This document shows, piece by piece, positions 2,499 to 50,405 of a stretch of DNA of 53,520 nucleotides. Source of the stretch: a virus (Duplodnaviria > Caudoviricetes). The notes below the pieces were generated by a model. It was not told the origin of the DNA, ran no database searches, and saw only the letters and a list, made by a program, of their open reading frames with translations. The position numbers were made by a program, and so were the translations under genes. The DNA lies in IMG/VR virus record IMGVR_UViG_3300046011_008859, positions 1 to 53,520 of that record. One strand, given 5' to 3'. Position 1 is the first letter of the stretch; every line of letters begins with the position of its first letter.

Positions 2499-2958
2499 CC
2501 TCCTGCTGGTGGGGTGTAGCGCGACGGAGCGGGTATCGGACAACACGAACGAGATCCGGGCAGAAGCCCGCGCCCTGTCCGTGCACGGGGAATCCATCCA
2601 AGACAAGGAGGTAGTCACCCGTGCCGACAGAATCTACGAACTGGCTGCCGATATCCATGCTCAGCTTCCTGGCCTTGAGGACCGTACCCCTGCGTGGATG
2701 GAAACGCTCATTTGGGTGGCTGGCTCCGTGGTTGCCGTTGCAGTCGTCATTGTCCTGTGGCAGACCGGACTGGGCCAGGCCATCCGGATTGCCGTCGGCT
2801 GGATCCCGCGCAAGAAGGTTTCGGATGCGGACCTTGCCAGCCGAATGCTCGATGACAAATCACCTGAGGATGCCCGCGAATATGTCGCTGCGCGGCGGGC
2901 ATCTGACCCGGAGTTCGATGCTGCGTGGCGACGCATTCACAAAAAGGAAACAGCATGA
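2479..2958 (+). CDS. Lipoprotein with an additional internal TM helix (u-spanin-like architecture)
   Basis: MKRLTASLLLVG-C lipobox at Cys13; TM segment TLIWVAGSVVAVAVVIVLW. Confidence 0.6.
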   Translation: MKRLTASLLLVGCSATERVSDNTNEIRAEARALSVHGESIQDKEVVTRADRIYELAADIHAQLPGLEDRTPAWMETLIWVAGSVVAVAVVIVLWQTGLGQAIRIAVGWIPRKKVSDADLASRMLDDKSPEDAREYVAARRASDPEFDAAWRRIHKKETA

Positions 2959-3071
2959 TCCTCGCTGACTTCTCCTCTTTCCTCGGTAGCCTTTGGTTTG
3001 CAGCCCTGCTTGGTGCGGTCGGCTTCGTGGCTGGCTGGTACCTGTGCAAGAAGCATGGCTCCAAGATCTGA
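2955..3071 (+). CDS. 38-aa single-TM peptide (not in the ORF track)
   Basis: MILADFSSFLGSLWFAALLGAVGFVAGWYLCKKHGSKI; AAGGA upstream; ATGA and TGATG overlaps with both neighbours. Confidence 0.65.
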   Translation: MILADFSSFLGSLWFAALLGAVGFVAGWYLCKKHGSKI

Positions 3072-4009
3072 TGTCGAACACTACCTTGGGATCGAATCCT
3101 AAGGCCCCGTTTCAGGTGAGGGCAGCGACAAGGAACATCCACCTTGTCGATCTCGATTGCACCTCGAAAACGGATGAGTGGTGGTTCCTGCTGTCCGGGG
3201 ACCGCCACCACGACAACCCGCACGCAGACCATGAACTTGAGCTCAAGCACCTGGATGAAGCGGTTGAGCGTCGCGCTGGCATCATCGATGTCGGCGATCT
3301 GTTCTGCGCCATGGAAGGCAAGTTCGATCCTCGCCGCAACAAGGCGGGCATTCGCGAAGAGCATGCACTGGCTGCGGACTACCTCGATTCCCTAGTCCGC
3401 CACGCCTCCGACTTCTACGCGCCGTACGCAAAGAACTTCGTCGTGATTGGCCGGGGCAATCACGAATCAGCGATCCTGAAGAACTGCGAGACGGACCTGA
3501 CCGAGCGGCTGTGCGAGCGCATAAGCCAGCAGACCGGGCACAAGGTGTATCCCGGAGGCTACGGCGGCTGGCTCCGTTTCAACATCAACCTTGACACCGA
3601 GCGGTTCACCCTGTCCCTCAAGTACTTCCACGGGGCTGGTGGGGCTGCGCTCATGTCCTTCGATACGCTCAAGGTCCGTCGCAACGCGGCGGTCATGCCG
3701 GACGCGGACGTGATCGTGCAGGGCCACGTCCACAAGCAGTGGTTCATGCCGCTGTCCCGCGAGCGACTTGTCTGCGACAAGGCCGGCTGCCGCGTGGTCA
3801 GCGACATCCAGTACCACGTCCGCACCGGGACGTACAAGGACGAGTTCGGTGACGGCCACAGCGGCTGGCACATCGAGCAGGGCCGAGGACCCGAGGTGCA
3901 GGGCGCGGTGTGGATGCGGCTCTACCTCGCGAAGCAGGCCGGCAAGACGATCAGCGGCGACCGCAAGACCTACTACCAGCTCACGCCTGAGTTCCACCTC
4001 GCGCACTGA
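3071..4009 (+). CDS. Calcineurin-like metallophosphoesterase
   Basis: Motifs GDRHHD, VGDLF, GNHE, FHG and GHVH in canonical order. Confidence 0.85.
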   Translation: MSNTTLGSNPKAPFQVRAATRNIHLVDLDCTSKTDEWWFLLSGDRHHDNPHADHELELKHLDEAVERRAGIIDVGDLFCAMEGKFDPRRNKAGIREEHALAADYLDSLVRHASDFYAPYAKNFVVIGRGNHESAILKNCETDLTERLCERISQQTGHKVYPGGYGGWLRFNINLDTERFTLSLKYFHGAGGAALMSFDTLKVRRNAAVMPDADVIVQGHVHKQWFMPLSRERLVCDKAGCRVVSDIQYHVRTGTYKDEFGDGHSGWHIEQGRGPEVQGAVWMRLYLAKQAGKTISGDRKTYYQLTPEFHLAH

Positions 4010-4021
4010 ACCCCACCAGCC

Positions 4022-4294
4022 ATGGCGAAGGGCGATCGAATCCTCCGCATCCGTGGCCAGCGATGGCGACTCAGGTTCGTGCCCCACCTGGGGGACGCGG
4101 AGGGCTTGTGCCACAAGCAGGAGCGCGTGATCCGCATTGCACGCGGCTACCCCGAGGAGCGGACCATGGACTCGATCATCCATGAGATCCTGCACGCGGC
4201 GCTGTGGGACCTGGACGAAGAGGCGGTGAACGAGACGGCCAACGCAATCTCCGCCGCACTCTGGCGTCTGGGCTACCGCCGGCCCGGAACTTAA
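4022..4294 (+). CDS. Small HExxH zinc-metallopeptidase-like protein
   Basis: SIIHEILHA motif followed by EE in a 90-aa ORF. Confidence 0.65.
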   Translation: MAKGDRILRIRGQRWRLRFVPHLGDAEGLCHKQERVIRIARGYPEERTMDSIIHEILHAALWDLDEEAVNETANAISAALWRLGYRRPGT

Positions 4295-4300
4295 ACTTCC

Positions 4301-4323
4301 ACTTGTAAGAAACTCTTACAAGT
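4301..4323. promoter_or_regulatory. Perfect AT-rich inverted repeat (operator-like or hairpin)
   Basis: ACTTGTAAGA-AAC-TCTTACAAGT, 10-bp arms, at the start of a 324-nt intergenic region. Confidence 0.5.
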
Positions 4324-4618
4324 CTTCATTACCGCGTACGTGGGATCGACAGTCCCAAATAACGTGTACGGACTCACCACACTTGTGAAGATCTGTAGCA
4401 CTTTCTATCCGGCGACCGACAATTCATCACAGCCGCCGTGTGGGATTCCCACTACCCACATTGCCGGGGAACACACGGCATCTTGTTGTTAGCTTCCGAC
4501 CGAAGCGAGCGATTAGATCAACGGCGGTGAAGCAGATACTACACCCTCTTCCCCTAGAGTCGCGCACGCGGGGAGGCGCGGTGCGCCCCGCGTGCGCTCA
4601 ACCCCAGGAGTCCCGACT

Positions 4619-5848
4619 ATGCCCCCACCAACCGTCTCAGTCAGCTACCCAACGTCCGTATGTGACCCGGTTTCACCCTGGCTTGAAAGCCACGGGATCT
4701 TCGCCCGGACCCCCCTCATTCGGTCCAGCGACTACCGCCTCGTCCGGTCGTGCCCACGCACATATTATCTGTCACGCCGTCTGGGGCTCGTAAAAGCCTT
4801 CCAGTACAGCCGGGCCCTCAGCCGGGGCTCATGGGTACACCTGGCCTTCGCGTGCATCTTGGACGATCCTAGCGATCGTGCCGTGACGCTAGAGCAAGCC
4901 GTGGTCGCCCGGTGCGAGGAACTGCGGGACGTGGCCAAGACCCTTGGCAGCTCCTCGGACAAGATCCGGGAGATCGTCGCCCGTGAGGAGCAGGACGCCC
5001 GTGTCAGCATCGCGTGGTTCAATGCCGCCCTCCAGGTCCCGGACGGATCCGGACGCACCATCGCCCAGCGTTTCCGCGATGACTGGCAGATCGTGGAGCA
5101 GGAACCGGAGATCGCGTTCAAGGACTGCCTCATTCAGCCCGACTGCCTCGTCCGGGACAAGGCCGGCAAACTCTGGATCGTGGACTTCAAGACCACGGCC
5201 ATGTCCACCAACGCCCGTCTCCAGACCTGCCCCCTCGAGTTCCAGACCCAGCACTACTTCAACACCATGCTTCGCCGCACGGCCGCAGACCCAGCCGCCG
5301 CAGCGCAGTGGTCCGCACCCGACCGCATCGGCGGCGTCCTGCACATCGCCGTGCGCAAGCCGTCCATCGAGTTCGGCATGCGTGACCGTCCGTTCACCAT
5401 GGACCTGAGCCCGTTCAAGTCCGGCCCACGCAAGGGCGAGCCCCGCAATGAGAAGATCTTCCACGGCGAACCGGACCCGTACCTCTACGAGCAGCGTTGC
5501 CTCGACTGGTACATCGGTCGCGGCGAGTACCTGCACAACGAACCCGAACGGCTCACCGATCCGTGCGTCGCGATTTCCACCACTTCCGCCGAACTGCTGC
5601 TTTCCGCCGAAGTACAGGCCGAGTACAATGCTCGCTTGTCCTTCGTGCGGAGATACAGGGAGCAAGCCGCAGAACCCGGCAACTACGAGATTGGGGATCC
5701 GGTCGTACAGCACGGCACGCCGTCGCCTTACCTCCCGTTCCACATGATCGAACCCGGCAAGTGGCCTGACCTGATCCTCACCGAAGGTTTCCTGCAGCGT
5801 GACAGAGACACCTTCACGGAGACGGATCTTGGAGAACCAGCAACCTGA
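4619..5848 (+). CDS. PD-(D/E)XK family exonuclease (RecB/Cas4-like fold)
   Basis: SSDY..SCPR.YY, RGSWVH, EQEPEI, PDCL, IVDFKT and QxxxY motifs; AGGAG upstream of the ATG. Confidence 0.8.
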   Translation: MPPPTVSVSYPTSVCDPVSPWLESHGIFARTPLIRSSDYRLVRSCPRTYYLSRRLGLVKAFQYSRALSRGSWVHLAFACILDDPSDRAVTLEQAVVARCEELRDVAKTLGSSSDKIREIVAREEQDARVSIAWFNAALQVPDGSGRTIAQRFRDDWQIVEQEPEIAFKDCLIQPDCLVRDKAGKLWIVDFKTTAMSTNARLQTCPLEFQTQHYFNTMLRRTAADPAAAAQWSAPDRIGGVLHIAVRKPSIEFGMRDRPFTMDLSPFKSGPRKGEPRNEKIFHGEPDPYLYEQRCLDWYIGRGEYLHNEPERLTDPCVAISTTSAELLLSAEVQAEYNARLSFVRRYREQAAEPGNYEIGDPVVQHGTPSPYLPFHMIEPGKWPDLILTEGFLQRDRDTFTETDLGEPAT

Positions 5849-6338
5849 GGAGAAGTCCCCCACCAGCCGCGAGTCTGGCAAGTCGGTCCTCGGCCCGGAG
5901 ATGTGGTCCGAAGTCCTGCAGCGCGTGATCGCACCACGCATCGCATCGGCAATCCGCCTCGATCCCCCCATCGAGAACAGGCACGAACTGCACAAGCGGT
6001 TCTGCGAGCTGAACTCGGTGCGCATCTCGTACTCCACCTTCAGCGGGTGGTGCGAGGATCTGGGCATCACGTTCCGCAAGCGCATCGAAGTCACCATCCC
6101 CGGCTGGAAGCCAGTGTCACAGCCGGTCAAGATCCCGTTCCGTGCCGTGTCGGAGACGGGCCCCGAGAACTCGCCCACCATCGAAGTGTCCATCTCCCCG
6201 GAGCCGGACGTTCCGATCACGTGGGATCCGCCGAAGCCCCCACCATCCCAGGTGTTCGGAGATGACGGACTTCCCAACATCCTGCCAGGCGGCATGCGTG
6301 GTCCCGCCTTCCTGGAATCCAAAGACTACGCAAACTAA
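5829..6338 (+). CDS. Hypothetical protein (possible DNA-binding N-terminal half, Pro-rich tail)
   Basis: ORF fills the gap between the nuclease and the ATPase; start uncertain (TTG 5829 with GGAG upstream). Confidence 0.55.
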   Translation: MENQQPEEKSPTSRESGKSVLGPEMWSEVLQRVIAPRIASAIRLDPPIENRHELHKRFCELNSVRISYSTFSGWCEDLGITFRKRIEVTIPGWKPVSQPVKIPFRAVSETGPENSPTIEVSISPEPDVPITWDPPKPPPSQVFGDDGLPNILPGGMRGPAFLESKDYAN

Positions 6339-6347
6339 GGAGTCATC

Positions 6348-7247
6348 ATGACACACTCCGTCACTCACGGTTCCACAATCGCCTCCAAGTACGCAGGGCT
6401 CGGCAATGCCGTTTCTACTGGTCGTAGCGTTCCTTCTCGCATGCTTGGACTCGTGGTCGGAGAGGCAGGCTGCGGCAAGTCCTTCCTCCTCCAGTCCCAT
6501 CCGGGTGCGTACATCCTCAATCTGGACGAGACTCCTGCGGTTTGCTCGACCAGCGAAGCCGTCATGTTCCCCACGCCCGGCCCTGACGGACGCTCCATCG
6601 ATGAGCGCGGCAACCCGGTCGTGATCGACTGGGCTGCGCTCGAGGCCAAGCACAAGGTCCTTCTCGACCTTGCCAAGAGCAACCAACCCCGACCAGAAAC
6701 CGTCGTCATCGACACGCTCGGTGCGGCGATCCGCCTGCTGCGTCCGCACATCGCCAAGCTCTACGGCCGCGAGCGGTTCACGGACGTCGATGGCCGGCTG
6801 GGCTGGGAGCGCTTGTTCGACACGCTCATCGAGTTCGGCACGAGCCTGCGCCGGCATGGGTACGGCGTCTACTACATTGCCCACCTGTCCCGCAAGCACG
6901 TTCCGCTCAGCGAGAACCAGCACGTCGAGGAGTACAAGATCCTCATCTCGGACGGCCTGTACGCGCGCATGTTCCCCATGTTCGACATCGTCATACCCGT
7001 CACGGCCCAGTGGGACACCCGCGAAGTCGTGACCGAGCAGACGGTGGAGATCAACGGCAAGCCCGTGAGCCGCAAGGTCACGAGCCAGCAGAAGATCCGC
7101 AGGCACTACGCCTCGTTCGACAACCCCAAGCTCGACGGCATCGCGAAGGTCCGCACGCTCACCCCGCTCTCGACCTTCGAGCTGCCGCGTGAGAATGCGT
7201 GGCAATCCTTCTGCGCCGCGTACGAGAGCGCGAACGCGGTCCGCTGA
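6348..7247 (+). CDS. AAA_24/Sak4-like P-loop ATPase (recombination)
   Basis: Walker A GEAGCGKS, Walker B VVIDTL, YIAH; TAAGGAG RBS; lies between nuclease and SSB. Confidence 0.75.
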   Translation: MTHSVTHGSTIASKYAGLGNAVSTGRSVPSRMLGLVVGEAGCGKSFLLQSHPGAYILNLDETPAVCSTSEAVMFPTPGPDGRSIDERGNPVVIDWAALEAKHKVLLDLAKSNQPRPETVVIDTLGAAIRLLRPHIAKLYGRERFTDVDGRLGWERLFDTLIEFGTSLRRHGYGVYYIAHLSRKHVPLSENQHVEEYKILISDGLYARMFPMFDIVIPVTAQWDTREVVTEQTVEINGKPVSRKVTSQQKIRRHYASFDNPKLDGIAKVRTLTPLSTFELPRENAWQSFCAAYESANAVR

Positions 7248-7327
7248 CGCGGGAACCGCGTTCGCTTCCCAGACTCTGTTTCGTTTGTTTCGTTTCGTTT
7301 CTTTCACCCCTCTTTACGGAGCATCAG

Positions 7328-7849
7328 ATGCCCATTGAGAACAACGTCAAGGCCATGTTCAACTCGCTCAACAACACCTTCGCGCAGGCCCAGCCCGACA
7401 ACGGCATGGGTGCTGGCGGTTGGTGGCCCGCCGAAGGCCAGCACGACGTGTTCGTGTCCAGCCTCAACGTGCGTGCCAGCGAGTTCAAGATGCCTGACGG
7501 CCAGAAGGTCCCCGGCACCGAGATCGTGTTCCGGTACCAGCTCATCAACGATCCTGACCAGCCCAACGAGCCCCGTTCCTTCGACGGTTCCTCGTTCCGG
7601 CTCCCGCAGGACACATCGTCCCTCGATGACAAGGGCCGCATGCGTGTCGAGATCGAGATGCGCCGCCTGAAGGGCCACCTTCAGACCATCCTCCGCCGCG
7701 ATGTCAAGGACATTGCCACGGCTCTCGCCGAGGCAGATGCACGCATCAACGGCGACCAGGCCGTGGCGGTCGTGGTCAAGTGCCAGTACGACAACGTCAA
7801 CGGCCGAACCTATCGCAAGGACTTCCTTGTGAAGCCCCTCGCGTCCTGA
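7328..7849 (+). CDS. Putative ssDNA-binding protein (DUF669-like)
   Basis: WPAEGQHDVFV beta-rich OB-like pattern; typical position after an AAA_24 ATPase. Confidence 0.55.
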   Translation: MPIENNVKAMFNSLNNTFAQAQPDNGMGAGGWWPAEGQHDVFVSSLNVRASEFKMPDGQKVPGTEIVFRYQLINDPDQPNEPRSFDGSSFRLPQDTSSLDDKGRMRVEIEMRRLKGHLQTILRRDVKDIATALAEADARINGDQAVAVVVKCQYDNVNGRTYRKDFLVKPLAS

Positions 7850-7875
7850 TACACTCACCAGTCACCCCACCAGCC

Positions 7876-7910
7876 GGGGGCGGGTAGCCCGCAAAGCTCC
7901 CGCCCCCTTT
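7876..7910 (+). terminator. Probable intrinsic terminator; second hairpin at 7927-7968
   Basis: GGGGGCGGG...CCCGCCCCC then TTT; CCCCCTGGC...GCCAGGGGG then TTTT. Confidence 0.5.
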
Positions 7911-7988
7911 CAGAGCCCCCGGATAGCCCCCTGGCTGCGACCTTCGACGGAACGCGCCAGGGGGTTTTCCCGGAGGGGGAAGGAACCC

Positions 7989-8426
7989 ATGTACCAGACC
8001 CGGTTCGTCTACCAACTGCCACTCGAACGAGCCGGAGAAGTTGCGGCCCACGTCACGAACGCGATGCAGGAAACCGCGATGCCTCCCGCGAACGTGCGGG
8101 TGCAGCCGGCTGATGACCTTGTCTTCGCGACGATCACGTACATGACGCCCACGCTGACCGAGAGCGACCAGCTCATCCAGTCGTGGAAAGCTATCGACGT
8201 GGCCGTGCAGGTGGAGCGCACTCATCGCCTGGACCCGGACCAGGTGGACTCGCTGCTTCTCGCGGGGAAGAACGGGCGCGAGCTTCGCCGCGCCCTAGCC
8301 CGCGCGATTCGCGAACTGTGCGTTCGCGGGGTGGGCTCGAAAGGCATCCTCGAGTACCTGCACGAGTGCGAGGAGATCGTCTCGGAGGCCTGCGAATTCG
8401 TAGAATCGCAGCGTGCACAACTCTGA
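7989..8426 (+). CDS. Hypothetical protein
   Basis: 145-aa ORF with AAGGA RBS and protein-like composition. Confidence 0.65.
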   Translation: MYQTRFVYQLPLERAGEVAAHVTNAMQETAMPPANVRVQPADDLVFATITYMTPTLTESDQLIQSWKAIDVAVQVERTHRLDPDQVDSLLLAGKNGRELRRALARAIRELCVRGVGSKGILEYLHECEEIVSEACEFVESQRAQL

Positions 8427-8859
8427 ACACGGGCTCTCCGCAGTCCTCTACCAGCACCCCGGCGAGCCACTCTCCATCACGGGCCCCAGCCCCTTCGTCG
8501 AAACCACGGAACCCCTCCCCGCGCACGTCGGCCTCCACCAAACCCCCACGGGCTGGTGGGGCGTCGTCACGCACACCCTTCCGCAGCAGCACCCGCAGGA
8601 CACCCTGCACCACTACGAACCCCACCTGCCACCCTGCGTGTGGTTCGGGCAGTGCGCGAACATCGGCCTCTACCTGCTGCCTACCCGCGAGAAGGTCGTG
8701 TCCGCACGCATCCGCGAGTCAGGCCTGCTCGGCATGAAGTCCTACCTCATGCACGAGATGGGCAAGGACAAGGCCGAGTCCCGGTTCGAGAAGCGCCGCA
8801 TCCCAGCCGGCGTCAGGTTCCTTCCCGGTCGCCACCTGCAGCTTTGGTTTTCCCTCTAG
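8413..8859 (+). CDS. Hypothetical protein
   Basis: 148-aa ORF overlapping the upstream gene; last plus-strand gene before the convergence point. Confidence 0.55.
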   Translation: MHNSEHGLSAVLYQHPGEPLSITGPSPFVETTEPLPAHVGLHQTPTGWWGVVTHTLPQQHPQDTLHHYEPHLPPCVWFGQCANIGLYLLPTREKVVSARIRESGLLGMKSYLMHEMGKDKAESRFEKRRIPAGVRFLPGRHLQLWFSL

Positions 8860-43328: not shown

Positions 43329-43469
43329 AGGTATCCCCCGGCCATCCGCCCTCCTCTGAGCGACCATGCCTCTGTCTCGGTGCCGCGGCACTCAGCACAC
43401 GCCACTAGCGTCCACCACGATAAGGCTCTGGCTGGTGGGGTACCATCCCCGCCCCATCCGAGGAACGAC

Positions 43470-44431: not shown

Positions 44432-44601
44432 CCGACAAGGAACTCATCGAACGCCTCACCGCCGAGCGCGACGAGGCGATCAAGGACGCGGAACGATGGC
44501 AGGCAGACGCCCTGCGCCTGTTGACCGAACGCAACGCAGCCAAGGAACAGAACGTCAAGCTCCTATCCAAGATCCAGGAGTACGAGGCACGTGAGCAATA
44601 G
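44428..44601 (+). CDS. 57-aa coiled-coil protein (not in the ORF track)
   Basis: MTDKELIERLTAERDEAIKDAERWQADALRLLTERNAAKEQ...; ATGA coupling. Confidence 0.6.
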   Translation: MTDKELIERLTAERDEAIKDAERWQADALRLLTERNAAKEQNVKLLSKIQEYEAREQ

Positions 44602-46675
44602 TCCCCGAGTCATCTCCCTCGACATCGAAACCTACGGAGCCGCTGCCACCAACGGGAAGGGAACCCTGTTGCCTGCGCAGACCGTGTTCCATCCTGCACG
44701 GGCCATCGCCACGGACGGCGTTGCCCGCCAGGACCTAGTGCTCACGTGCGCCATCACCGTCGCAGCGTCCGAGCCACGCCGTCCCGCCAACGGAACGCTC
44801 GACCTCGACGGCATCGCCAGCCTCGTGCCCGGCTCCACCTTCACGCTCAACCTGACCGACCCCACCAGCCACGCGTGCCTGTCCGCATGGCTTCGTCACT
44901 CCGACGTGATCGTCGGCATGAACCTGCCGTTCGACATCCTCTGGCTGCGTGCGTTCAGCAACGAGTTCGCGATGCTCCTGTCCGGCAGGCATACGCTCAT
45001 CGACCTGTCCGTCGTCAACTTCCTTCACTCCGAGCTCCGTCCAGAGCGCAGCCTCAAGTCACTCGGCCCCGTCCTCGGCACGCACTCGTACCGTGACGAC
45101 GCCACTCTCAAGGACGGCCGACGCTTCCCGTCCCCCACCAGCCCGGATCTCCACGCCTACAACGCGCAGGACACGCACAACACCATGCTCGCCGTCGCCC
45201 ACCTGGCACGGCGCATCCAGCAGGATTACCCCGGCACAGACAAGCTCAACCCAAAGTGCGTCGGCCACTTCAGCAGCACGCTGTGGTCCACCATCCGCAT
45301 GAGCGAAGCCGGCATCCCGTTCCGGTTCCGCACCCTGCACAACCTCGAGGATCGCCTGCTCCTCGAAGCAGACCAAGCATCCAACTGCGCCGCTGCTGGT
45401 GGGGTACTCATCGAAGGCGAAGGCAGCGTCCAGTCGCAGCGCGAGTTCCTCGACCGATGCATCGCCGACATCCAGGTCGCGCACCCCGACTTCCTCACCC
45501 ACCCACTGCTCACCTACACCGAGAAGAACAAGCAGCTCTCGTGGTCCAGCGAGAACCGCCGCCTCATCTCCAGCCACCTGCCCGACACGCACCCGGCCCG
45601 TGCCGTCTTCGAGTGCGCCGACAAGCACGCCACCGCACAGAAGCTCGTCTCCTCATACACCTACCCGCTCCTCCGGCACCGTCGCACCAAGCCCACGGAC
45701 AAGTCCTCCGTCCTCATCCCCTGCGCCGGCAACCCGATCATCGGCATCGCGTACCCCACGTGGTACACCGTCCCGTCCGTGCCGAAGGACTCCGGCTCCG
45801 AGGGCGGCACGATCCAGGCACGCATCACCTGCAAGAACCCAGCAGCCCAGACATTCCCCGCCGTCATCAAGGACTGCGAGGAGTCACGCTTCCCCGGCGG
45901 CAGCATCGTCTCGTTCGACCTGAGCCAGATCGAGCTCCGCGTCGCAGCCGTCCTGTCCGGCGAGCCCACCCTGCTCGCCGCCTTCAACGACGGCCTCGAC
46001 CTGCACACCGAGCGCACGCTCGCCATCTTCGGCCCCGACTCCAAGGAACGCACGGACTTCAAGGCCCTGCGCCAGATCGGCAAGACCGTGAACTTCGCCG
46101 ACCTGTTCGGCGCATCCGCCGCACGACTCCAGCGTTCCGTGCTCGACATGTCCGGCACGCTGTACCCCATGTCCTTCTTCGACCAGATCGTCGCCTCACG
46201 CCACGCCCAGCGTCCCCGCCTGGTGGAGTGGCAGCACTCCCTCTGCAAGACCGCCGAGTCCAATGGGTACATCGAGCTGCCGTACACCGGCCACTCCCGC
46301 ACGTTCACCAACTTCCGTCTGGACGAACGGGCATGGCGCACGCGCAAGGAACTCAAGCAGATGCTCGCACGCGGAGGCAAGTCGATGATCTCCGAAGTCT
46401 GCAACTTCCCCGTGCAGGCGACCGCCGGCAACGCCATGCTCGCCATCCAGAACCACATCCACCGCAGCCTCGGACCCCTGACTTCTCCCACCAGCCACCT
46501 CCAGCCGCGCCTGTTCCTCCAGGTCTACGACGCCCTGTACTTCGACTGCCCGCCGGGCACCGAAGACCATGCCCGCGACCTCATGGTGGAAGCAGTCGAG
46601 CACGTGTCCGAGTGCGGCTATTGGTACGAACTCTGTTCCCGTTCCGGTCATCACGCACCCCTCATCTACGAGTAA
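44591..46675 (+). CDS. polA: DNA polymerase family A with 3'-5' exonuclease
   Basis: Exo motifs SLDIETY, NLPFDI, YNAQD; motif A DLSQIELR; motif B RQIGKTVNFADLFG; NFPVQATA; motif C LQVYDAL. Confidence 0.9.
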   Translation: MSNSPRVISLDIETYGAAATNGKGTLLPAQTVFHPARAIATDGVARQDLVLTCAITVAASEPRRPANGTLDLDGIASLVPGSTFTLNLTDPTSHACLSAWLRHSDVIVGMNLPFDILWLRAFSNEFAMLLSGRHTLIDLSVVNFLHSELRPERSLKSLGPVLGTHSYRDDATLKDGRRFPSPTSPDLHAYNAQDTHNTMLAVAHLARRIQQDYPGTDKLNPKCVGHFSSTLWSTIRMSEAGIPFRFRTLHNLEDRLLLEADQASNCAAAGGVLIEGEGSVQSQREFLDRCIADIQVAHPDFLTHPLLTYTEKNKQLSWSSENRRLISSHLPDTHPARAVFECADKHATAQKLVSSYTYPLLRHRRTKPTDKSSVLIPCAGNPIIGIAYPTWYTVPSVPKDSGSEGGTIQARITCKNPAAQTFPAVIKDCEESRFPGGSIVSFDLSQIELRVAAVLSGEPTLLAAFNDGLDLHTERTLAIFGPDSKERTDFKALRQIGKTVNFADLFGASAARLQRSVLDMSGTLYPMSFFDQIVASRHAQRPRLVEWQHSLCKTAESNGYIELPYTGHSRTFTNFRLDERAWRTRKELKQMLARGGKSMISEVCNFPVQATAGNAMLAIQNHIHRSLGPLTSPTSHLQPRLFLQVYDALYFDCPPGTEDHARDLMVEAVEHVSECGYWYELCSRSGHHAPLIYE

Positions 46676-46678
46676 ACC

Positions 46679-46993
46679 ATGCAGAACTGGTCCGTTCCCC
46701 CCACCGTCTTCGAGTCCCTCTACCGCTACTACAGACACGGCATCCCCGGCGGCGACTTCGTCATGTCCGTCATCAACGACAAGGGATGGGAAGCCGCAGC
46801 CCGTGCGGACTCCACCAACCGCAAACACCTGGCCGACATCCTGCTGTTCAACGGGCAGGCCAGCCGATACCACCGTGACTGCAAGCTCTCGAACGACATG
46901 TCCGGATACGACCTGCGATGGGAAGCATGGCGCAACCGGTACAGCCCGGAAGCCCAGGAGATCACCGCCTACCTCGGAGAAGACGATGATTAA
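46679..46993 (+). CDS. Hypothetical protein
   Basis: YYRHGIPGGDFVMSVIND...AAARADSTN. Confidence 0.65.
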   Translation: MQNWSVPPTVFESLYRYYRHGIPGGDFVMSVINDKGWEAAARADSTNRKHLADILLFNGQASRYHRDCKLSNDMSGYDLRWEAWRNRYSPEAQEITAYLGEDDD

Positions 46994-47303
46994 GTACGGC
47001 GACTACAACCTCGAAGGTCCCATCGAACGGGACATCACCGTGTACGTGGAGCGCAACGGCATCTACCTTGCCACCACCTATGCCTGTCGCTACACGATCA
47101 TCAACGAGCGAATCGACAACGGCGACCGTAGGTCACGCGTCGAAGTCGAGGACCGCACGCTCATCAAGGTGGAGTTCGGAGATGTCCACGACAACGAGTA
47201 CCGCTGGATCTACGGCGACGACATGCACCCCAAGATCCGCAACGCGGTCGACACGTTCGGTCCGGAGATCGAGAACAAGCTGAACAAGGAACTAAAGCCA
47301 TGA
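46986..47303 (+). CDS. Hypothetical protein
   Basis: MIKYGDYNLEG... overlapping both neighbours. Confidence 0.6.
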   Translation: MIKYGDYNLEGPIERDITVYVERNGIYLATTYACRYTIINERIDNGDRRSRVEVEDRTLIKVEFGDVHDNEYRWIYGDDMHPKIRNAVDTFGPEIENKLNKELKP

Positions 47304-47698
47304 GCAACTACCCCAACATCCGCAAGTGCATCGACCAGGTCCGCCACCTCCTCCCCGCCGAGTTCACGCTGGTCGTGGAGTACTCCGGGTCCAACGACTC
47401 CGGCTGGTTCGACCACCACTTCTTCTCGATGGAGGAAGGCGACCGGGTAATCTACAAGTCCGAAGACGAGAAGGAAGCAGCGCACTCCATCGTCCAGTCG
47501 TTCATCTCCGACATCCACGACGAGCTGTACCAGCTGCTCGAGTCCAGATTCCCCGGCTGGGAGATCGGGGATGGGTACGTGGACGGATCGAACGGAGCAT
47601 TCACGATCCACAGCAAGAACAACGTCATCTCCCAGCGGCACGAGATCCGATTCCAGGAAACCAAGGACGAGAGTCCAGACGAGGAAGTGAGCTTCTGA
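47300..47698 (+). CDS. DUF6878-like protein
   Basis: VEYSGSNDSG and PGWEIGDG..G.FTI motifs. Confidence 0.65.
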   Translation: MSNYPNIRKCIDQVRHLLPAEFTLVVEYSGSNDSGWFDHHFFSMEEGDRVIYKSEDEKEAAHSIVQSFISDIHDELYQLLESRFPGWEIGDGYVDGSNGAFTIHSKNNVISQRHEIRFQETKDESPDEEVSF

Positions 47699-48135
47699 TG
47701 CACCCATACCACCACGCACTGTCCTCCGCCAAGAAGTTCGGCGGGGAATGGCAGGATTACCTGTTCATCCACAACTGGTTCGACGAGACGAAGGCACTGA
47801 TGGGAGACGCACGACACCGTGCCCTCCGCCACCACACCGCCGGCATCTTCTGGTGCGAGCAGGAGTTCGGAACCAACATCAAGGTTGGCGACAAGCTGGT
47901 CCCGGTCCGGCTGGTCGCGGAGCAGCACGTCATGGAGGACATGGGTTTCCTGCCCACGCCCGAGTGGTGGCTGTCCAACATGAAGCTGACCATCGGCATG
48001 AACCGAGTCCCCTCCAAGCCGCCGGTCAGCGGAGACGAATGGGCGGACACCAGGAAGAATCTCCTGAAGGACATCTACGGACTGCACAAGGAAATCCCTA
48101 GCATCCGGGAGTGTCCCGAACCGCCACCGTCCTGA
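47698..48135 (+). CDS. DUF6915-like protein
   Basis: HPYHHALSSAKKFGG..DY..IHNWFD..K..D.RHRALRHH..GIF...EQHVMEDMG. Confidence 0.75.
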   Translation: MHPYHHALSSAKKFGGEWQDYLFIHNWFDETKALMGDARHRALRHHTAGIFWCEQEFGTNIKVGDKLVPVRLVAEQHVMEDMGFLPTPEWWLSNMKLTIGMNRVPSKPPVSGDEWADTRKNLLKDIYGLHKEIPSIRECPEPPPS

Positions 48136-48692
48136 TCGACAGCAGGGAGAAGAAGCCGCTTGCGTTCCCGGCCCACCTCGTGGTGCTGGACCGCAGCCGC
48201 CCCTCCACCGCCGGCAAGTCCCTCACATTGACGGTCCGCACTCAGTCTCAGACCCTCAAGACCGGGGACTACCGGCTGGTGGGGGGCACCAGCGCAATCG
48301 AGCGGAAGGGATCCTTCGAGGAGATCGCAGGCAATTGCCTGACCGTGGACGGCAGGCGACGCTTCGCTGACTGCTGCCGTCGCCTGCGCGACGATTGCAG
48401 GACAGCATGCCTCCTGTTCGAGGGCTGGATCCGTGACTTTGAAGTAAGGCCTGGACTTCCCCATCCGGGGGTAGCAACCGATGCCCTACTGGATATCATC
48501 GGGGAGCACGGTTTGCCGCTCATGCTTCTTCCCCTGAGCACAGTAGGCCAGCGTAGGGCCGCAGGAGAATGGGCACTGAGGTGGCTGCTCGCGCAGGAAA
48601 AACATGGCACAGGTCCAGCTCACGACGGACGTCAAGAACTACGACTACCAGACGCTGATCTCAGGGGTGACTCCGTCAGGGGAGACGTTTGA
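48111..48692 (+). CDS. ERCC4/XPF-domain nuclease (resolvase candidate)
   Basis: IDSREKKP, LKTGDY and IERKGS motifs. Confidence 0.8.
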   Translation: MSRTATVLIDSREKKPLAFPAHLVVLDRSRPSTAGKSLTLTVRTQSQTLKTGDYRLVGGTSAIERKGSFEEIAGNCLTVDGRRRFADCCRRLRDDCRTACLLFEGWIRDFEVRPGLPHPGVATDALLDIIGEHGLPLMLLPLSTVGQRRAAGEWALRWLLAQEKHGTGPAHDGRQELRLPDADLRGDSVRGDV

Positions 48693-49140
48693 ACCCAGGA
48701 GATTTCCGGTTTCCGTCCGTCCGACTTCCTCGAATGGATCAGGGGTCTATGTCTTCGGCGGTAACCAGAACTACCTGAAGCTCCAGGTTTTCTCGGCTCA
48801 GACCTCGGGGCTCAACGCATACATCTACGGCTGGAACTTCTGCGCAGAACGAATGTTCTGGGTTCCTCAGGCCCTTTGGGAAGGAAGCTTTTCGTTTTCT
48901 GCTCCCATCGCGACTGTTCCGTTCTCGACAAGTCAGATGTATGCAGGGTTCATGACGACCACTTCTCCCGGAAACAATGCTGGACCGACGAACAGCAAGG
49001 AACTTGTGTTTGGGACACACACTGCAGGTTCCACCCTGATGGTGGACTGCGTCGGTGCTCAGTTCCTTGAGCTGGTCATCTTCAATCCTACTTCTGGCGG
49101 TTCGGCTTCCACCCTTGGCATTCTCACGTCGAGCCTCTGA
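48604..49140 (+). CDS. Hypothetical (probably structural) protein
   Basis: 178 aa beta-rich; first gene of the fibre cassette; lower GC. Confidence 0.6.
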   Translation: MAQVQLTTDVKNYDYQTLISGVTPSGETFEPRRFPVSVRPTSSNGSGVYVFGGNQNYLKLQVFSAQTSGLNAYIYGWNFCAERMFWVPQALWEGSFSFSAPIATVPFSTSQMYAGFMTTTSPGNNAGPTNSKELVFGTHTAGSTLMVDCVGAQFLELVIFNPTSGGSASTLGILTSSL

Positions 49141-49397
49141 TGAGATACAGAATCAAGCCAGTCGGAAGCCCATACGCGCTGCTTTCGAGACTGCGCAACG
49201 GCGAGAGGATCCTGCCGCTTGTTCTTGTTGCCTCGTTCAATCCGAGCGACAACGTCTACGACTACGTCTACGACGGTGAGAATCCAACCGCAAGCCAGGC
49301 GTTCGTCCAGGATTACCTCGAAGGATCCGATCCGTACGAAACGCAGTACGTCCTGTACGTAGACGGTGGAGATCCCTTCACCGAACTGCCTTCGTAA
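49140..49397 (+). CDS. Hypothetical protein
   Basis: 85 aa, TGATG coupling, VDGGDPF near the C-terminus. Confidence 0.6.
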   Translation: MRYRIKPVGSPYALLSRLRNGERILPLVLVASFNPSDNVYDYVYDGENPTASQAFVQDYLEGSDPYETQYVLYVDGGDPFTELPS

Positions 49398-49400
49398 TCG

Positions 49401-50405
49401 ATGATCACGAACAAGTCAATCATCGCAGTAAGGCGTGGATCATCCGCTGCGTGGGTGAATGCGAATCCACTTCTTGTACTTGGCGAGATTGGCTACGACA
49501 CGACGGCCCTGAAGTTCAAGGTCGGGAACGGAGAAGACCTGTGGAACGACCTGCCGTACGTCACGGCCGGAGACACCCAGGCTCTCTGGACACGGACAGA
49601 CCCGACGACCATTACGGTCGGCGGCATCACGAGCGGAACGTCGGGCTCCGCGCTGGTGGGTGACAATGCCATCGAGATCCTCGAGCGGATGCTGTACCCA
49701 TACGTCGCACCCGTGTTCAGCAACCTGTCGGTGTCCGGGCTGAGCAGTGCATACGAGATCGGCCAGCCATTCATCACGAGCGGCACCGCAACCTGGACCG
49801 CCGGCCAGCCCACCGCCAACTGGATCAACGGCACCGGGTACATCTCGTTCACCCCACCCACCGGCGTGGTGGGGGACATCGCGGGTCCGTTCAACCCCAC
49901 CAGCCAAAGCCAGGTACTCAACTTCTCCTCCTTCACTGCCCCCACCAGCCCCGTCAACAGCAACTCGATCACGATTGCACTGCGTGGCCAGCACAACGCA
50001 GCCAACCCCACCAACGCGAGCACCAGCATCAGCCGTCAGTGGTGGTCCCGCATGTACTTCGGCAAGTCAAGCAACGCGAACCTGACCACCAACACATTCA
50101 ACGTGGCAGCCGGCACAAACAACGGTGCGCTGCTCCAGACCACGAACGGCCAAGGCCCCAGCAACTACTCGATGGACGTGGGTGCAGGCGGTGGATACTT
50201 CTACTTCTTTATCCACAATGACTACACCCTGTCCACCGCTGGACCGTTCTTCGGACTGAGGTTCGGCACCAACGCGCTGGCGCAGGACCCGATCACGACC
50301 GTCACCCTGACGAACCAGTACGGCGTGACCGCCACGTACAAGCGGTACAAGTCCACCAACATTCTCAACGACGCCATCACCGTGGTGGCGAACCCGACTT
50401 CCTGA
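49401..50405 (+). CDS. Fibre protein with an Mtd_N/hyaluronidase-type N-terminal domain
   Basis: RRGSSAAWVNANPLLVLGEIGYDT...KVGNG...WNDLPY. Confidence 0.75.
   Translation: MITNKSIIAVRRGSSAAWVNANPLLVLGEIGYDTTALKFKVGNGEDLWNDLPYVTAGDTQALWTRTDPTTITVGGITSGTSGSALVGDNAIEILERMLYPYVAPVFSNLSVSGLSSAYEIGQPFITSGTATWTAGQPTANWINGTGYISFTPPTGVVGDIAGPFNPTSQSQVLNFSSFTAPTSPVNSNSITIALRGQHNAANPTNASTSISRQWWSRMYFGKSSNANLTTNTFNVAAGTNNGALLQTTNGQGPSNYSMDVGAGGGYFYFFIHNDYTLSTAGPFFGLRFGTNALAQDPITTVTLTNQYGVTATYKRYKSTNILNDAITVVANPTS

What the first reader, a model, noticed from the sequence alone, without database searches (positions are those of the whole stretch)
2505..49949. Genome-wide Chi-containing 10-mer (GCTGGTGGGG) at 27 or more sites
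Seen: exact CCCCACCAGC on the plus strand starts at 4011, 5858, 7865, 15354, 17270, 18295, 19678, 20800, 23983, 27825, 28753, 32862, 33852, 36105, 44860, 45133, 49895 and 49940. Exact GCTGGTGGGG starts at 2505, 3635, 8552, 9248, 14492, 29378, 43431, 45395 and 48275. Eighteen of the 27 extend to the 11-mer GGCTGGTGGGG. Nine-base versions occur near 31018, 40700, 43563, 46487 and 49652. At roughly 63% GC (my estimate) about 0.4 copies are expected on both strands. The motif is read as LVG, AGG, GWWG or PTS in different genes and also lies between genes (4011, 7865, 43431), so selection appears to act on DNA rather than protein. Established: GCTGGTGG is the E. coli RecBCD Chi site. Inference: this is a phage-wide cis-acting system. 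It could be Chi mimicry against host RecBCD/AddAB or CRISPR adaptation, a recombination hotspot for the phage's own nuclease/ATPase/SSB module, or a binding site for a phage or host protein (stoperator-like).
Basis: partly seen in the sequence, partly recalled or inferred. Interest (0 to 1): 0.9.

Follow-up and report, generated by a model that had tools for sequence, protein, structure and literature searches.

The report
Selected G-rich DNA word across phage genome
An uncultured lake phage and its whole family keep dozens of copies of one short G-rich DNA word written through their genes, spelled differently in each lineage, so it is a real DNA-level signal whose reader is still unknown and which is probably not a copy of the bacterial Chi site.

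Summary
Observation confirmed. GCTGGTGGGG occurs 27 times (9 +, 18 -) where 0.3-0.4 are expected. A shuffle of synonymous codons that keeps every protein gives 4.3. The full word is gGCTGGTGGGG[G/T] around a GGTGGGG core, which occurs 65 times.

It is read as AGG, LVG, WWG or, antisense, PTS. About half of all peptides able to carry it are spelled as the word.

Relatives at about 77% DNA identity keep 15-16 of 20-21 aligned sites intact, against 14-24% for control 10-mers. More distant relatives (large terminase, TerL, 52-58% identical; GC 41-61%) carry 19-31 copies of a different word, (C/A)GTGGGGGG(A/AC), or a seven-G spelling, at other positions.

Orientation ignores transcription. The strand bias is what GC skew predicts in 9 of 11 genomes.

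No bacterial genome searched is enriched, but the host is unknown.

Best reading (0.4): a co-evolving site for a phage-encoded DNA-handling protein. Host Chi mimicry is a live rival (0.2). Stoperator-like control and origin-iteron identity fail direct tests. The scan has noted comparable G-rich genome-wide words in other phages.

The parts
2505..2514 (+). 10-mer, sense, read LLVGC (lipobox-like) in ORF 2479-2958
   Evidence: kept in G001, G002, G004, G005
3635..3644 (+). 10-mer, sense, AGG, ORF 2993-4009
   Evidence: not kept in relatives
4011..4020 (-). 10-mer, intergenic between 2993-4009 and 4022-4294
   Evidence: kept in G001, G002, G004
5858..5867 (-). 10-mer, antisense, PTS, ORF 5799-6338
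7865..7874 (-). 10-mer, intergenic after the SSB-like gene 7199-7849
8552..8561 (+). 10-mer, sense, GWWG, ORF 8413-8859
9248..9257 (+). 10-mer, antisense, PTS, in the 1276-aa gene 8813-12643
14492..14501 (+). 10-mer, antisense, PTS, ORF 14417-14752
15354..15363 (-). 10-mer, sense, AGG, ORF 14749-16353 (no homologue in the ten relatives)
17270..17279 (-). 10-mer, sense, AGG, ORF 16362-17555
18295..18304 (-). 10-mer, sense, LVG, 890-aa gene 18241-20913
19678..19687 (-). 10-mer, sense, LVG, 890-aa gene
20800..20809 (-). 10-mer, sense, LVG, 890-aa gene
23983..23992 (-). 10-mer, sense, LVG, ORF 23566-24504
   Evidence: not kept in relatives
27825..27834 (-). 10-mer, sense, AGG, 14 nt before the stop of ORF 27811-28707
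   Evidence: kept in G001, G002, G004, G005
28753..28762 (-). 10-mer, sense, AGG, in the 667-aa gene 28700-30703, which I read as the portal gene from size and position only
29378..29387 (+). 10-mer, antisense, PTS, in the portal-like gene 28700-30703
32862..32871 (-). 10-mer, sense, LVG, 6 nt before the stop of ORF 32856-33347, at the start of the TerL gene
33852..33861 (-). 10-mer, sense, LVG, ORF 33525-34769
36105..36114 (-). 10-mer, sense, LVG, ORF 35229-36680
43431..43440 (+). 10-mer, in the 5' part of, or just upstream of, the UDG-like gene (ORF 43224-44186)
44860..44869 (-). 10-mer, antisense, PTS, DNA polymerase A gene
45133..45142 (-). 10-mer, antisense, PTS, DNA polymerase A gene. 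G001, G002 and G004 have GCAGGTGGGG here; G006 has its own word CGTGGGGGGAC at the same spot
45395..45404 (+). 10-mer, sense, AGG, DNA polymerase A gene
48275..48284 (+). 10-mer, sense, LVG, ERCC4-like gene 48111-48692 (relatives have GTTGGTGGGG)
49895..49904 (-). 10-mer, antisense, PTS, Mtd_N-domain gene 49401-50405
49940..49949 (-). 10-mer, antisense, PTS, Mtd_N-domain gene
786..50568 (.). 38 further GGTGGGG cores with variant 5' flanks (GATGGTGGGG x8, GCAGGTGGGG x7, GTTGGTGGGG and others), spread over the genome
   Evidence: (list and position counts)
40478..40525 (+). Intergenic hairpin CTCCCCCACCGAC...GTCGGTGAGGGGAG. At the orthologous spot G001, G003, G004 and G006 have an inverted pair of their own word. 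Here both arms have changed together, so the pairing is kept but the word is lost
38402..38438 (+). Terminator-like hairpin after the helicase operon. Its 3' arm is GGTGGGGGG, followed by a T run

Best explanation
The word is a cis-acting DNA site that a family of uncultured lake and marine tailed phages maintains by selection throughout the genome. The family shares TerL, a portal-like gene, a capsid-like gene, a D5/P4-type helicase, a UDG-like protein, DNA polymerase A, a PD-(D/E)XK nuclease, an AAA_24 ATPase and an SSB-like protein.

SHOWN: it is written at the DNA level against codon preference, in three frames, on both strands and between genes. Individual sites are kept while their flanks diverge. 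Each lineage has its own spelling around a shared GTGGGG core: GGCTGGTGGGG here, CTGGTGGGGT, CGTGGGGGGAC, AGTGGGGGG(G)A. Spelling follows the phage tree, not GC content.

MOST LIKELY MECHANISM (speculative; roughly half of this hypothesis's weight): the word marks places, about every 1.5 kb on one strand and every 3 kb on the other, where the phage's own replication-recombination machinery starts or processes a DNA strand by priming, loading or cutting. Any DNA that stays long in this lineage therefore acquires it.
For: Excess and codon-level selection:
- 27 against 0.30-0.40 expected, and against 4.26 +/- 1.26 under the synonymous shuffle.
- 7 of 16 AGG[VADEG], 9 of 17 xLVG and 8 of 17 xPTS peptide contexts are spelled as the word. 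Codon usage predicts about 0.4%, 1% and 2%.
- The tripeptides LVG, AGG and PTS are 2.3-3.2 times over expectation. Their reversals are not.

Purifying selection:
- 16 of 21, 15 of 21 and 15 of 20 aligned sites are fully kept in G001, G002 and G004. Random aligned 10-mers are kept 14-16% of the time and same-composition 10-mers 14-24%.
- 18-20 of 33-39 sites in orthologous genes coincide with a site in the relative, against a null of 0.25-0.41.

Family-wide and lineage-specific:
- 26-35 copies in G001-G004.
- 19-31 copies of GTGGGGGGA in G006, G008 and G009; a seven-G spelling in G007 (22 against 0.22).
- Type A forms one TerL clade. Type B forms two clades, in which sister subclades of GC 45-46% and 57-61% share GTGGGGGG (quick tree).
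- At 45133 the orthologous spot in G006 carries G006's own spelling.

Not a host-wide word where I could look:
- In the metagenome-assembled bin G011, 29 of 36 GTGGGGGGA lie on three small contigs. One of these, C7, holds the TerL relative L107. The remaining roughly 3.5 Mb hold 7.
- 151 Planctomycetota and 121 Cyanobacteriota genomes show no enrichment at anything like the phage's density. The few cyanobacteria with an excess over the reversed control are explained by pentamer usage: O/E 1.2 in 398 kb.
- Five proteobacterial replicons are at control level.

Other points:
- In an IMG/VR scan for two copies 300-330 nt apart, 2 of 33 hits were enriched genome-wide, and both are family members.
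- Genes with no homologue in the ten relatives (8.5 kb) hold 1 of 27 10-mers and 3 of 53 wider-set sites. This fits slow acquisition during residence in the lineage.
- Spacing per strand tends to be more even than random: CV 0.41-0.9 against about 0.95. Four of 11 minor-strand sets have P <= 0.005.
Against: - No reader is identified.
- The obvious candidate is the D5/P4/SaPI-Rep-type helicase (TIGR01613; best folds SaPI5 PriRep5, poxvirus D5/E5 and ASFV PrimPol). It probably reads other repeats: the origin-like region just after its operon carries GGTAC(C) repeats in type A genomes and TGACCAC repeats in type B, not the genome-wide word.
- No primase catalytic domain was found. PF09250 gave nothing in six-frame searches of 5 genomes.
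- The strand bias, 17:36 here, is no more than strand composition predicts in 9 of 11 genomes. It does not switch around the origin-like region: 9:17 against 8:19, my hand count from the listing. This gives no positive sign of a fork-direction-dependent role.
- The window's spelling contains the complete E. coli Chi octamer, which would be a coincidence under this reading.
- The host is unknown, and most phyla could not be searched.
Confidence: 0.4

Rival explanations
1. Chi mimicry. The word, or its 7-8-nt core, is the crossover-hotspot sequence of the unknown host's RecBCD or AddAB nuclease. The phage accumulates it in both orientations so that the nuclease, entering at any double-strand end, is switched from degradation to repair before it destroys the genome. 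The different spellings reflect different hosts.
For: - The window's spelling contains GCTGGTGG exactly, 36 copies or 0.67 per kb.
- Its variants GATGGTGG and GTTGGTGG fit the Haemophilus form GNTGGTGG. That form is recalled, not taken from a call.
- Known Chi sequences are short, G-rich and act independently of transcription (recalled).
- Lambdoid phages without RecBCD inhibitors over-represent Chi: median O/E 2.3-4.8, about 0.2 per kb (PMC3784561, abstract and passages).
- No Gam or Abc2-like gene was recognised among the proteins scanned.
- Even spacing and presence on both strands would suit protection from either end.
- The commoner strand is the TerL-sense strand in 11 of 11 genomes. That is the active orientation for lambda-type entry if packaging runs with late transcription. 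This last step is inference from recalled lambda biology.
Against: - About 10-11 positions are constrained, and the strongest are GGTGGGG plus a G at -3, not the octamer. Known Chi sites are 5-8 nt (recalled).
- O/E is 68 for the 10-mer, far above the published phage Chi excess.
- GCAGGTGGGG x7 is not a GNTGGTGG form.
- Type B and C lineages hold no Chi octamer, yet have the same density.
- The same spelling spans GC 41-61%.
- The word is not enriched in any genome searched: bin G011 outside its three small contigs, 272 genomes of two phyla, five proteobacterial replicons and 398 kb of the best cyanobacterial candidate.
- The phage has its own nuclease/AAA_24/SSB-like module.
Confidence: 0.2
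2. Nick-associated motif. A phage enzyme introduces single-strand interruptions at the word in packaged DNA, as in T5, the phiKMV-like phages and the tf/Rembedalsseter group.
For: There is a published precedent for a short asymmetric word conserved across a phage group that otherwise shares little DNA. TACTRTGAC marks 13 nicks in Rembedalsseter and is enriched in 60 relatives: net 9.0 against 0.7 (PMC11780129, abstract and passages). Here too the word is asymmetric, family-wide, ignores gene orientation and has no known function. The family core includes two nucleases, PD-(D/E)XK and ERCC4-like.
Against: The published motifs lie on one strand only, number 4-13 and are concentrated in one part of the genome. 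Here there are 53-68 sites on both strands at about 1:2, spread evenly. No read-level data could be examined: all runs holding the phage are served as contigs only.
Confidence: 0.12
3. Double-strand binding sites for a phage protein that organises, marks or shields the genome. Examples would be recognition of phage DNA for packaging, condensation, or protection from a host or phage nuclease. Orientation would not matter.
For: Strand choice follows composition only in 9 of 11 genomes. There is no relation to transcription. Spacing is even. The spelling is lineage-specific, as expected for a co-evolving protein-site pair. One site lies at the junction of the candidate small-terminase gene and the TerL gene (32862). 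An inverted pair of the word sits in a conserved intergenic spot.
Against: No candidate DNA-binding protein was recognised; most early genes have no family match. G008 shows a 3:20 strand bias with almost no GC skew (P = 0.003), which argues for a directional role in at least one lineage. In the window the conserved hairpin keeps its pairing but has lost the word, so that locus is selected for structure, not for binding.
Confidence: 0.12
4. Stoperator-like control. A repressor binds the sites and blocks transcription elongation across the genome, as in Cluster A mycobacteriophages.
For: The copy number is similar, the site is asymmetric, and the consensus is lineage-specific, as for L5, Bxb1 and Trixie (PMC6550527 passages; PMC9283540 abstract only).
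Against: Stoperators predominantly lie in one orientation relative to transcription. Here sense:antisense:intergenic is 25:20:8, and 10:10:3 in G008. No integrase or repressor was recognised among the proteins scanned. No prophage relative was found in 185,579 species genomes; the only hits were four contigs in metagenome-assembled bins.
Confidence: 0.03
5. No function. The word is a by-product of peptide, codon-pair or mutational bias, or of gene conversion.
For: LVG, AGG and PTS are common small-residue peptides. The site at 2505 doubles as a lipobox-like LVGC.
Against: The word uses disfavoured codons (GCT 0.15, GGT 0.16, GGG 0.19). It occurs in three frames, antisense and between genes. 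It exceeds the protein-preserving null six-fold. Sites are conserved far above same-composition controls. Distant relatives enrich a different word.
Confidence: 0.02

Closest known systems
Chi sites (E. coli GCTGGTGG, read by RecBCD) and their over-representation in lambdoid phages that lack RecBCD inhibitors (PMC3784561)
   Same: Short, G-rich, asymmetric, scattered through coding sequence independently of transcription, and over-represented. The window's spelling contains the E. coli octamer.
   Different: Here 10-11 positions are constrained, centred on GGTGGGG. O/E is about 68, not 2-5. Sister lineages use words without the octamer. No host genome with the word was found among those searched. 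Whether a host nuclease reads it is untested.
Nick-associated motifs of Pseudomonas phages tf and Rembedalsseter (TACTRTGAC), and of the phiKMV-like phages and T5 (PMC11780129)
   Same: A short asymmetric word kept across a whole phage group regardless of gene content, with unknown function. This is the nearest published kind of phage-family genome word.
   Different: Those words sit on one strand only, number 4-13, and are concentrated in one genome region. Here there are 53-68 sites on both strands, evenly spread. Physical nicks are untested.
Stoperators of Cluster A mycobacteriophages (L5 gp71-type repressor sites; PMC6550527, PMC9283540)
   Same: Tens of asymmetric sites per genome, with a consensus that drifts from lineage to lineage.
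   Different: Stoperators point with transcription and belong to temperate phages with a cognate repressor. Here orientation ignores transcription, and no repressor, integrase or prophage relative was found.
Template recognition sites of helix-bundle-domain primases (pRN1 ORF904 5'-GTG-3'; phage NrS-1 5'-GTGG/GTGA-3' and TTTGGTTA; PMC8718748)
   Same: Every spelling in the family shares GTGG(GG). Density, about one per 1.5 kb on the commoner strand, is of Okazaki-fragment order. The family core includes a D5/P4-type helicase-primase relative.
   Different: Those sites are 3-8 nt. No AEP/Prim-Pol catalytic domain was detected here. Site orientation does not switch around the origin-like region.
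Origin iterons of self-loading SF3 helicase initiators (SaPI Rep, P4 alpha; PMC9371898)
   Same: The family's helicase folds like SaPI5 PriRep5. An AT-rich, repeat-flanked origin-like region lies right after its operon, as in SaPIs.
   Different: The repeats at that origin-like region are GGTAC(C) or TGACCAC, not the genome-wide word. The word is dispersed, not clustered.

Membership tests
Chi (RecBCD/AddAB hotspot) | Sequence equals the host's Chi | tested here: inconclusive
   The E. coli octamer is contained in the window's spelling, but the host is unknown. Type B and C relatives lack the octamer.
Chi (RecBCD/AddAB hotspot) | Over-represented, and skewed by replichore, in the host chromosome | not testable with these tools
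   Host unknown. Not enriched in those searched: bin G011 outside its three small contigs, 151 Planctomycetota, 121 Cyanobacteriota, five proteobacterial replicons.
Chi (RecBCD/AddAB hotspot) | Recognition length of 5-8 nt (recalled from the literature) | tested here: not met
   10-11 constrained positions: G at -3 in 58 of 65 sites, C/T/A then T/A, an invariant GGTGGGG, and rarely C at +1.
Chi (RecBCD/AddAB hotspot) | Attenuates the host nuclease in one orientation | not testable with these tools
   Needs enzyme assays. The strand bias equals the composition expectation in 9 of 11 genomes.
Stoperators (Cluster A mycobacteriophages) | [quoted passage not shown] | tested here: not met
   Sense:antisense:intergenic is 25:20:8 in the window, 27:27:14 in G001 and 10:10:3 in G008. 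The defining feature is taken from PMC6550527 passages.
Stoperators (Cluster A mycobacteriophages) | Cognate immunity repressor in a temperate phage | tested here: inconclusive
   No repressor or integrase family was hit among about 50 proteins scanned. No prophage relatives were found. Many small ORFs were not scanned.
Nick-associated phage motifs (tf/Rembedalsseter, phiKMV, T5) | Physical single-strand breaks at the motif | not testable with these tools
   Only assembled contigs of the runs are served.
Nick-associated phage motifs (tf/Rembedalsseter, phiKMV, T5) | Motif confined to one strand | tested here: not met
   9:18 for the 10-mer and 17:36 for the wider set. Only G008 approaches one strand, at 3:20.
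Primase recognition sites (AEP with helix-bundle domain) | Phage encodes an AEP/Prim-Pol catalytic domain | tested here: not met
   PF09250 found in 0 of 5 family genomes, six frames, E <= 1. Only the P4-family C-terminal helicase part is present (TIGR01613, 126 bits).
Primase recognition sites (AEP with helix-bundle domain) | GTG(G) core in the template word | tested here: met
   All spellings share GTGGGG. The feature is taken from PMC8718748 passages.
Primase recognition sites (AEP with helix-bundle domain) | Sites lie on the lagging-strand template, so orientation switches at the origin | tested here: not met
   9:17 against 8:19 (+:-) in the two halves around the origin-like region at about 38.5 kb. 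This is a hand count from the listing. Unidirectional replication is not excluded.
Origin iterons of SF3 helicase initiators (SaPI Rep, P4 alpha) | Repeats clustered beside an AT-rich region next to the helicase gene | tested here: not met
   Such a region exists in all 11 genomes, but its repeats are GGTAC(C) or TGACCAC. The genome-wide word is dispersed.

The most novel reading that the evidence does not exclude
The word is a phage-lineage 'self' tag: a Chi-like signal whose reader is encoded by the phage, not the host. For example, the family's PD-(D/E)XK nuclease/AAA_24/SSB-like module or its D5-type helicase would process or degrade any DNA lacking the lineage's spelling (host DNA, competing phages) and would switch to recombination or replication on meeting the word. 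Word and reader would co-evolve, so a change of spelling (GGCTGGTGGGG, CGTGGGGGGAC, AGTGGGGGGGA) would act as a barrier between lineages. Newly acquired genes would be 'naturalised' over time, as the depletion of the word in lineage-specific genes suggests.
Probability: 0.12. Interest if true: 0.9.

Novelty: new variant of a known kind. Interest (0 to 1): 0.72.

Why it matters
Short words kept throughout a genome by selection on the DNA itself are rare and have been informative: Chi, uptake sequences, KOPS, stoperators, phage nick motifs. Each pointed to a machine that reads DNA.

Here a whole family of abundant, uncultured lake and marine phages devotes about 1% of its sequence to such a word. 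It bends codon choice, and even amino-acid sequence, in essential genes to keep it, and it re-spells the word from lineage to lineage.

Either outcome can be tested with oligonucleotides and a few purified proteins.

This scan has noted comparable G-rich genome-wide words in unrelated phages (unchecked notes), so the phenomenon may be general.

Tried and rejected
1. Nearest cultured relatives. Megablast of 20 kb and tblastn of TerL against 50,697 phage records found nothing. The helicase has only 28%-identical relatives.

2. Host identification.
- No tRNA genes.
- The TerL profile against 185,579 species genomes found 4 contigs in metagenome-assembled bins and no prophage.
- Sequencing runs are lake-water metagenomes only, kept as contigs. 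I therefore did not use read laying: contigs cannot show read ends or strands.

3. I first read the strand bias as a genome-wide polarity. A strand-specific composition model predicts it in 9 of 11 genomes, so I dropped polarity as evidence.

4. The origin-like region carries other repeats, so I rejected this as the leading candidate.

5. Shewanella phage 1/44, the closest cultured helicase relative, looked as if it had a polar word. It is a local array of 29 repeats at 3808-4271, a classical origin, not a genome-wide word.

6. Gene-end association is 2-3 times in type A genomes, which share sites, and absent in type B. It is too weak to build on.

7. HIP1 is absent.

8. Some cyanobacteria show the 10-mer at 5-12 times its reversed control. 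In 398 kb of the densest one, O/E is 1.2 under a pentamer model, so there is no host signal.

9. Sequence searches of three large proteins against solved structures and two atlas look-ups gave nothing usable.

10. The exact-string paper search returned only primers in unrelated papers: 283 papers, 30 listed. That is my basis for saying I found no description of these words in print. Subscription journals are not covered. I did not ask for supplements. Tables S1-S4 of PMC3784561, which I did not see, hold the Chi O/E values per model.

12. The careful tree did not finish. The tree cited is the quick one.

Full report
WHAT THE WINDOW IS. The window is one complete IMG/VR virus record: 53,520 bp, CheckV completeness 100%, listed as linear. 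GC is 0.619. Its two ends overlap as diverged copies of one tail-fibre-like gene: 1-68 equals 52957-53024, and the 564 bp overlap is 77% identical.

Genes run + (1-8.8 kb), - (8.8-36.7 kb, the structural block with TerL at 30916-32859) and + (36.7-53.5 kb, early and replication genes). Proteins I could recognise:
- PD-(D/E)XK nuclease, 4592-5848
- AAA_24 ATPase, 6348-7247
- a P4-family primase C-terminal/SF3 helicase, 36710-38128 (TIGR01613, 126 bits against a cut-off of 108.7)
- a family-4 UDG-like protein, 43224-44186
- DNA polymerase A, 44591-46675
- DUF6915, and a weak ERCC4-like nuclease, 48111-48692
- an Mtd_N-domain fibre protein, 49401-50405

Most other proteins match no family. There is no tRNA, no close cultured relative and no prophage relative in 185,579 species genomes. 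The DNA occurs in lake-water metagenomes.

Dinucleotide shuffles give 0.30 (maximum 2). An order-3 Markov model gives 0.40. The reversed word occurs 0 times. Eighteen sites extend to GGCTGGTGGGG, and the five nine-base versions are real.

Shuffling synonymous codons within each gene, with proteins kept, gives 4.26 +/- 1.26 (maximum 8 in 500) against 27. For the core GGTGGGG it gives 27 +/- 3.8 against 65. After masking the core, no other word exceeds z of about 9.

The signal is wider than the 10-mer. The 65 GGTGGGG cores have G at -3 in 58 cases and G at -4 in 45. Position -2 is C, T or A (42, 10, 9), position -1 is T or A (47, 9), and C is rare at +1 (8).

SELECTION IS ON DNA.
- Frames. Of the 27 sites, 17 lie in the sense strand (AGG x7, LVG x9, WWG x1), 8 lie antisense (always PTS) and 2 lie between genes.
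- Codons. The word uses minority codons (GCT 0.15, GGT 0.16, GGG 0.19). Even so, 7 of 16 AGG[VADEG], 9 of 17 xLVG and 8 of 17 xPTS contexts are spelled as the word, where codon usage predicts about 0.4%, 1% and 2%.
- Protein sequences. The tripeptides LVG (18 against 7.9), AGG (29 against 12.2) and PTS (17 against 5.3) are enriched. Their reversals are not. The word has therefore also shaped the proteins.
- Conservation. Relatives G001, G002 and G004 are 77% identical over the roughly 30 kb that aligns. There, 16 of 21, 15 of 21 and 15 of 20 aligned sites are intact. The figures are 14-16% for random aligned 10-mers and 14-24% for 10-mers of the same composition. Identity is 81-100% at word positions and about 60-85% in the flanks.

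A FAMILY TRAIT WITH LINEAGE-SPECIFIC SPELLING. TerL relatives are numerous in IMG/VR: 121 confirmed, 80 kept.
- Those with TerL 81-95% identical share the word. Whole records G001-G004 hold 26-35 copies, with reversed control 0.
- A GC-50% sister group (TerL 69%) has CTGGTGGGGT at lower density (G005).
- Relatives at 52-58% identity, from GC 0.41 to 0.61, carry a different word. CGTGGGGGGAC or AGTGGGGGGA occurs 31, 19 and 21 times as GTGGGGGGA in G006, G008 and G009, with controls of 0-2. G007 has a seven-G form, TCCCCCCCAC, 22 against 0.22.
- All spellings share GTGGGG.
- On a quick TerL tree, type A is one clade (support 100). Type B occupies two clades. Within one of these, sister subclades of GC 45-46% and 57-61% share GTGGGGGG.
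- Site positions are shared within the close clade: 18-20 of 33-39, against a null of 0.25-0.41. At greater distance they are almost never shared: 1-2. One orthologous spot in the polymerase gene carries each lineage's own spelling (45133).
- Genes with no homologue in the ten relatives (8.5 kb) hold 1 of 27 10-mers and 3 of 53 wider-set sites. DNA seems to acquire the word with residence time.

ORIENTATION AND SPACING.
- Orientation is unrelated to transcription. Sense:antisense:intergenic is 25:20:8 here, 27:27:14 in G001 and 10:10:3 in G008.
- The G-form is commoner on the TerL-sense strand in 11 of 11 genomes.
- That strand is also the G-rich strand. A strand-specific trinucleotide model predicts the observed share in 9 of 11 genomes; the exceptions are G008 (3:20, P = 0.003) and G009 (P = 0.07). 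I therefore do not count polarity as independent evidence.
- The ratio does not change across the origin-like region: 9:17 against 8:19, my hand count.
- Spacing per strand tends to be more even than random. CV is below the null mean in nearly all 33 sets. Four minor-strand sets have P <= 0.005, but others are unremarkable.
- Sites are 2-3 times enriched within 60 nt of stop codons in type A genomes, which share sites, and not in type B.

HOST WORD OR PHAGE WORD? I could not identify the host. Where I could look, the word belongs to the phage.
- In the bin that holds a type B contig, 29 of 36 GTGGGGGGA lie on three small contigs. One of these, C7, holds the TerL relative L107. Seven lie in the other roughly 3.5 Mb.
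- Among 151 Planctomycetota and 121 Cyanobacteriota genomes, none has the 11-mer at more than about 10 per Mb. The phage has 336 per Mb.
- The cyanobacteria with the largest excess over the reversed control (for example 91 against 10) show O/E 1.2 under a pentamer model in 398 kb.
- Five proteobacterial replicons (Ralstonia 2.09 Mb, Polaromonas, Rhodoferax, Novosphingobium, Sinorhizobium 1.68 Mb) are at control level for both the 10-mer and TGGTGGGG.
- E. coli K-12, which does own the octamer, has 34 copies of the 10-mer in 4.64 Mb.
- An IMG/VR scan for two copies 300-330 nt apart returned 33 contigs. Only the two family members among them are enriched genome-wide.
- These searches cover a small part of bacterial diversity. 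Actinomycetota, Bacteroidota, Verrucomicrobiota and proteobacterial chromosomes were out of reach.

CANDIDATE READERS.
- The family core (tblastn matrix) comprises the nuclease/AAA_24/SSB-like module, the helicase, UDG-like plus polymerase, the ERCC4-like nuclease and the structural genes.
- The helicase model (pLDDT 64) matches SaPI5 PriRep5, poxvirus D5/E5 and ASFV PrimPol.
- SaPI Reps load themselves at penta- or hexanucleotide iterons that flank an AT-rich region directly after rep (PMC9371898 passages). All 11 genomes have such a region after the helicase operon: an AT-rich tract and a conserved AATTTTGAGAG-like box. Its repeats are GGTAC(C) in type A and TGACCAC in type B, not the genome-wide word. 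The helicase's DNA-binding domain is therefore probably occupied with those repeats.
- Helix-bundle primases recognise GTG or GTGG (PMC8718748 passages), which matches the shared core. However, no Prim-Pol domain is detectable.

VERDICT. The word is real, strongly selected at the DNA level, family-wide and re-spelled between lineages.
- Best supported (0.4): it is the recognition site of a phage-encoded, co-evolving DNA-handling protein, most plausibly marking where strands are started or processed during replication-recombination. No reader has been found.
- Host Chi mimicry (0.2) remains possible because of the embedded octamer and the unknown host. Against it are the length and centre of the word, the Chi-less spellings in sister lineages and the negative genome searches.
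- Nick motifs (0.12) and orientation-free binding sites (0.12) cannot be separated from the best reading without read-level or biochemical data.
- Stoperator-like control (0.03) and a no-function by-product (0.02) are effectively excluded.
- I found no description of these words in the searchable literature. Earlier notes of this scan report comparable words in unrelated phages. These are unchecked leads, not support.

Noticed in passing
window 38389-38776, and the same position after the helicase operon in G001-G010: Origin-like region conserved across the family. A terminator-like hairpin is followed by GGTACC/GGTAC/GGTAT repeats, an AT-rich tract (TTTCTTTTATATATAT...) and a conserved AATTTTGAGAG-like box. 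Type B relatives have TGACCAC repeats in place of the GGTAC ones. The layout resembles SaPI Rep origins.
   Followed up: partly
window 36-47 kb; same pattern in G001-G006, G009, G010: Sharp, conserved GC-skew switch. The helicase gene is strongly G-rich on its sense strand (+0.2 to +0.4 per kb). The next 7-10 kb of early genes, on the same strand, are strongly C-rich (-0.2 to -0.3). The sign is opposite to the bacterial origin rule.
   Followed up: partly
window 36710-38128, 43224-44186, 44591-46675: The replication set (D5-type SF3 helicase, a UDG-family protein immediately upstream of the polymerase, and the polymerase) recalls the poxvirus D5/D4/E9 arrangement. That comparison is recalled, not tested. 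All three genes are in the family core.
   Followed up: no
window 1-564 and 52957-53520: The window's two ends are diverged copies (77% identical, with exact stretches 1-68 and 159-248) of the start of a fibre-like gene. This is either a circular genome assembled across two variants or a real terminal duplication.
   Followed up: partly
window 49852-50012: Five GGTGGGG cores within about 160 bp (49852-, 49868+, 49895-, 49940-, 50006-) inside the Mtd_N-domain gene. This is the densest local cluster in the genome.
   Followed up: no
window, genome-wide: GATC occurs 390 times against 185 expected from base composition. CGTGATCG/CGATCACG occurs 20 times against 4.9. GATC excess is seen in all ten relatives too.
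   Followed up: no
L275 (Shewanella phage 1/44, NC_025463) 3808-4271: An intergenic array of 29 GATGATGTG repeats, many extended to GATGATGTGTCATATGC, all on one strand. It looks like a classical iteron origin in the nearest cultured phage with a related helicase.
   Followed up: partly
G015:C1:51505-54849 and G016:C1:21456-23348 (IMG/VR contigs unrelated to this family): Local clusters of 7-8 copies of the same 10-mer on one strand within 2-3.3 kb of otherwise unenriched 56-58 kb phage contigs. Probably a repetitive glycine-rich gene.
   Followed up: partly
G184, G277, G214, G175, G259 (Cyanobacteriota genomes): The 10-mer is 5-12 times commoner than its reversed control (for example 137 against 11). 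In the one genome examined this is explained by pentamer usage (O/E 1.2). It shows that the reversed-word control can mislead.
   Followed up: yes
window 2505-2514: This copy of the word encodes an LLVGC lipobox-like motif in a small membrane-protein gene. It is kept in G001, G002, G004 and G005, so it may be under both protein-level and DNA-level constraint.
   Followed up: no
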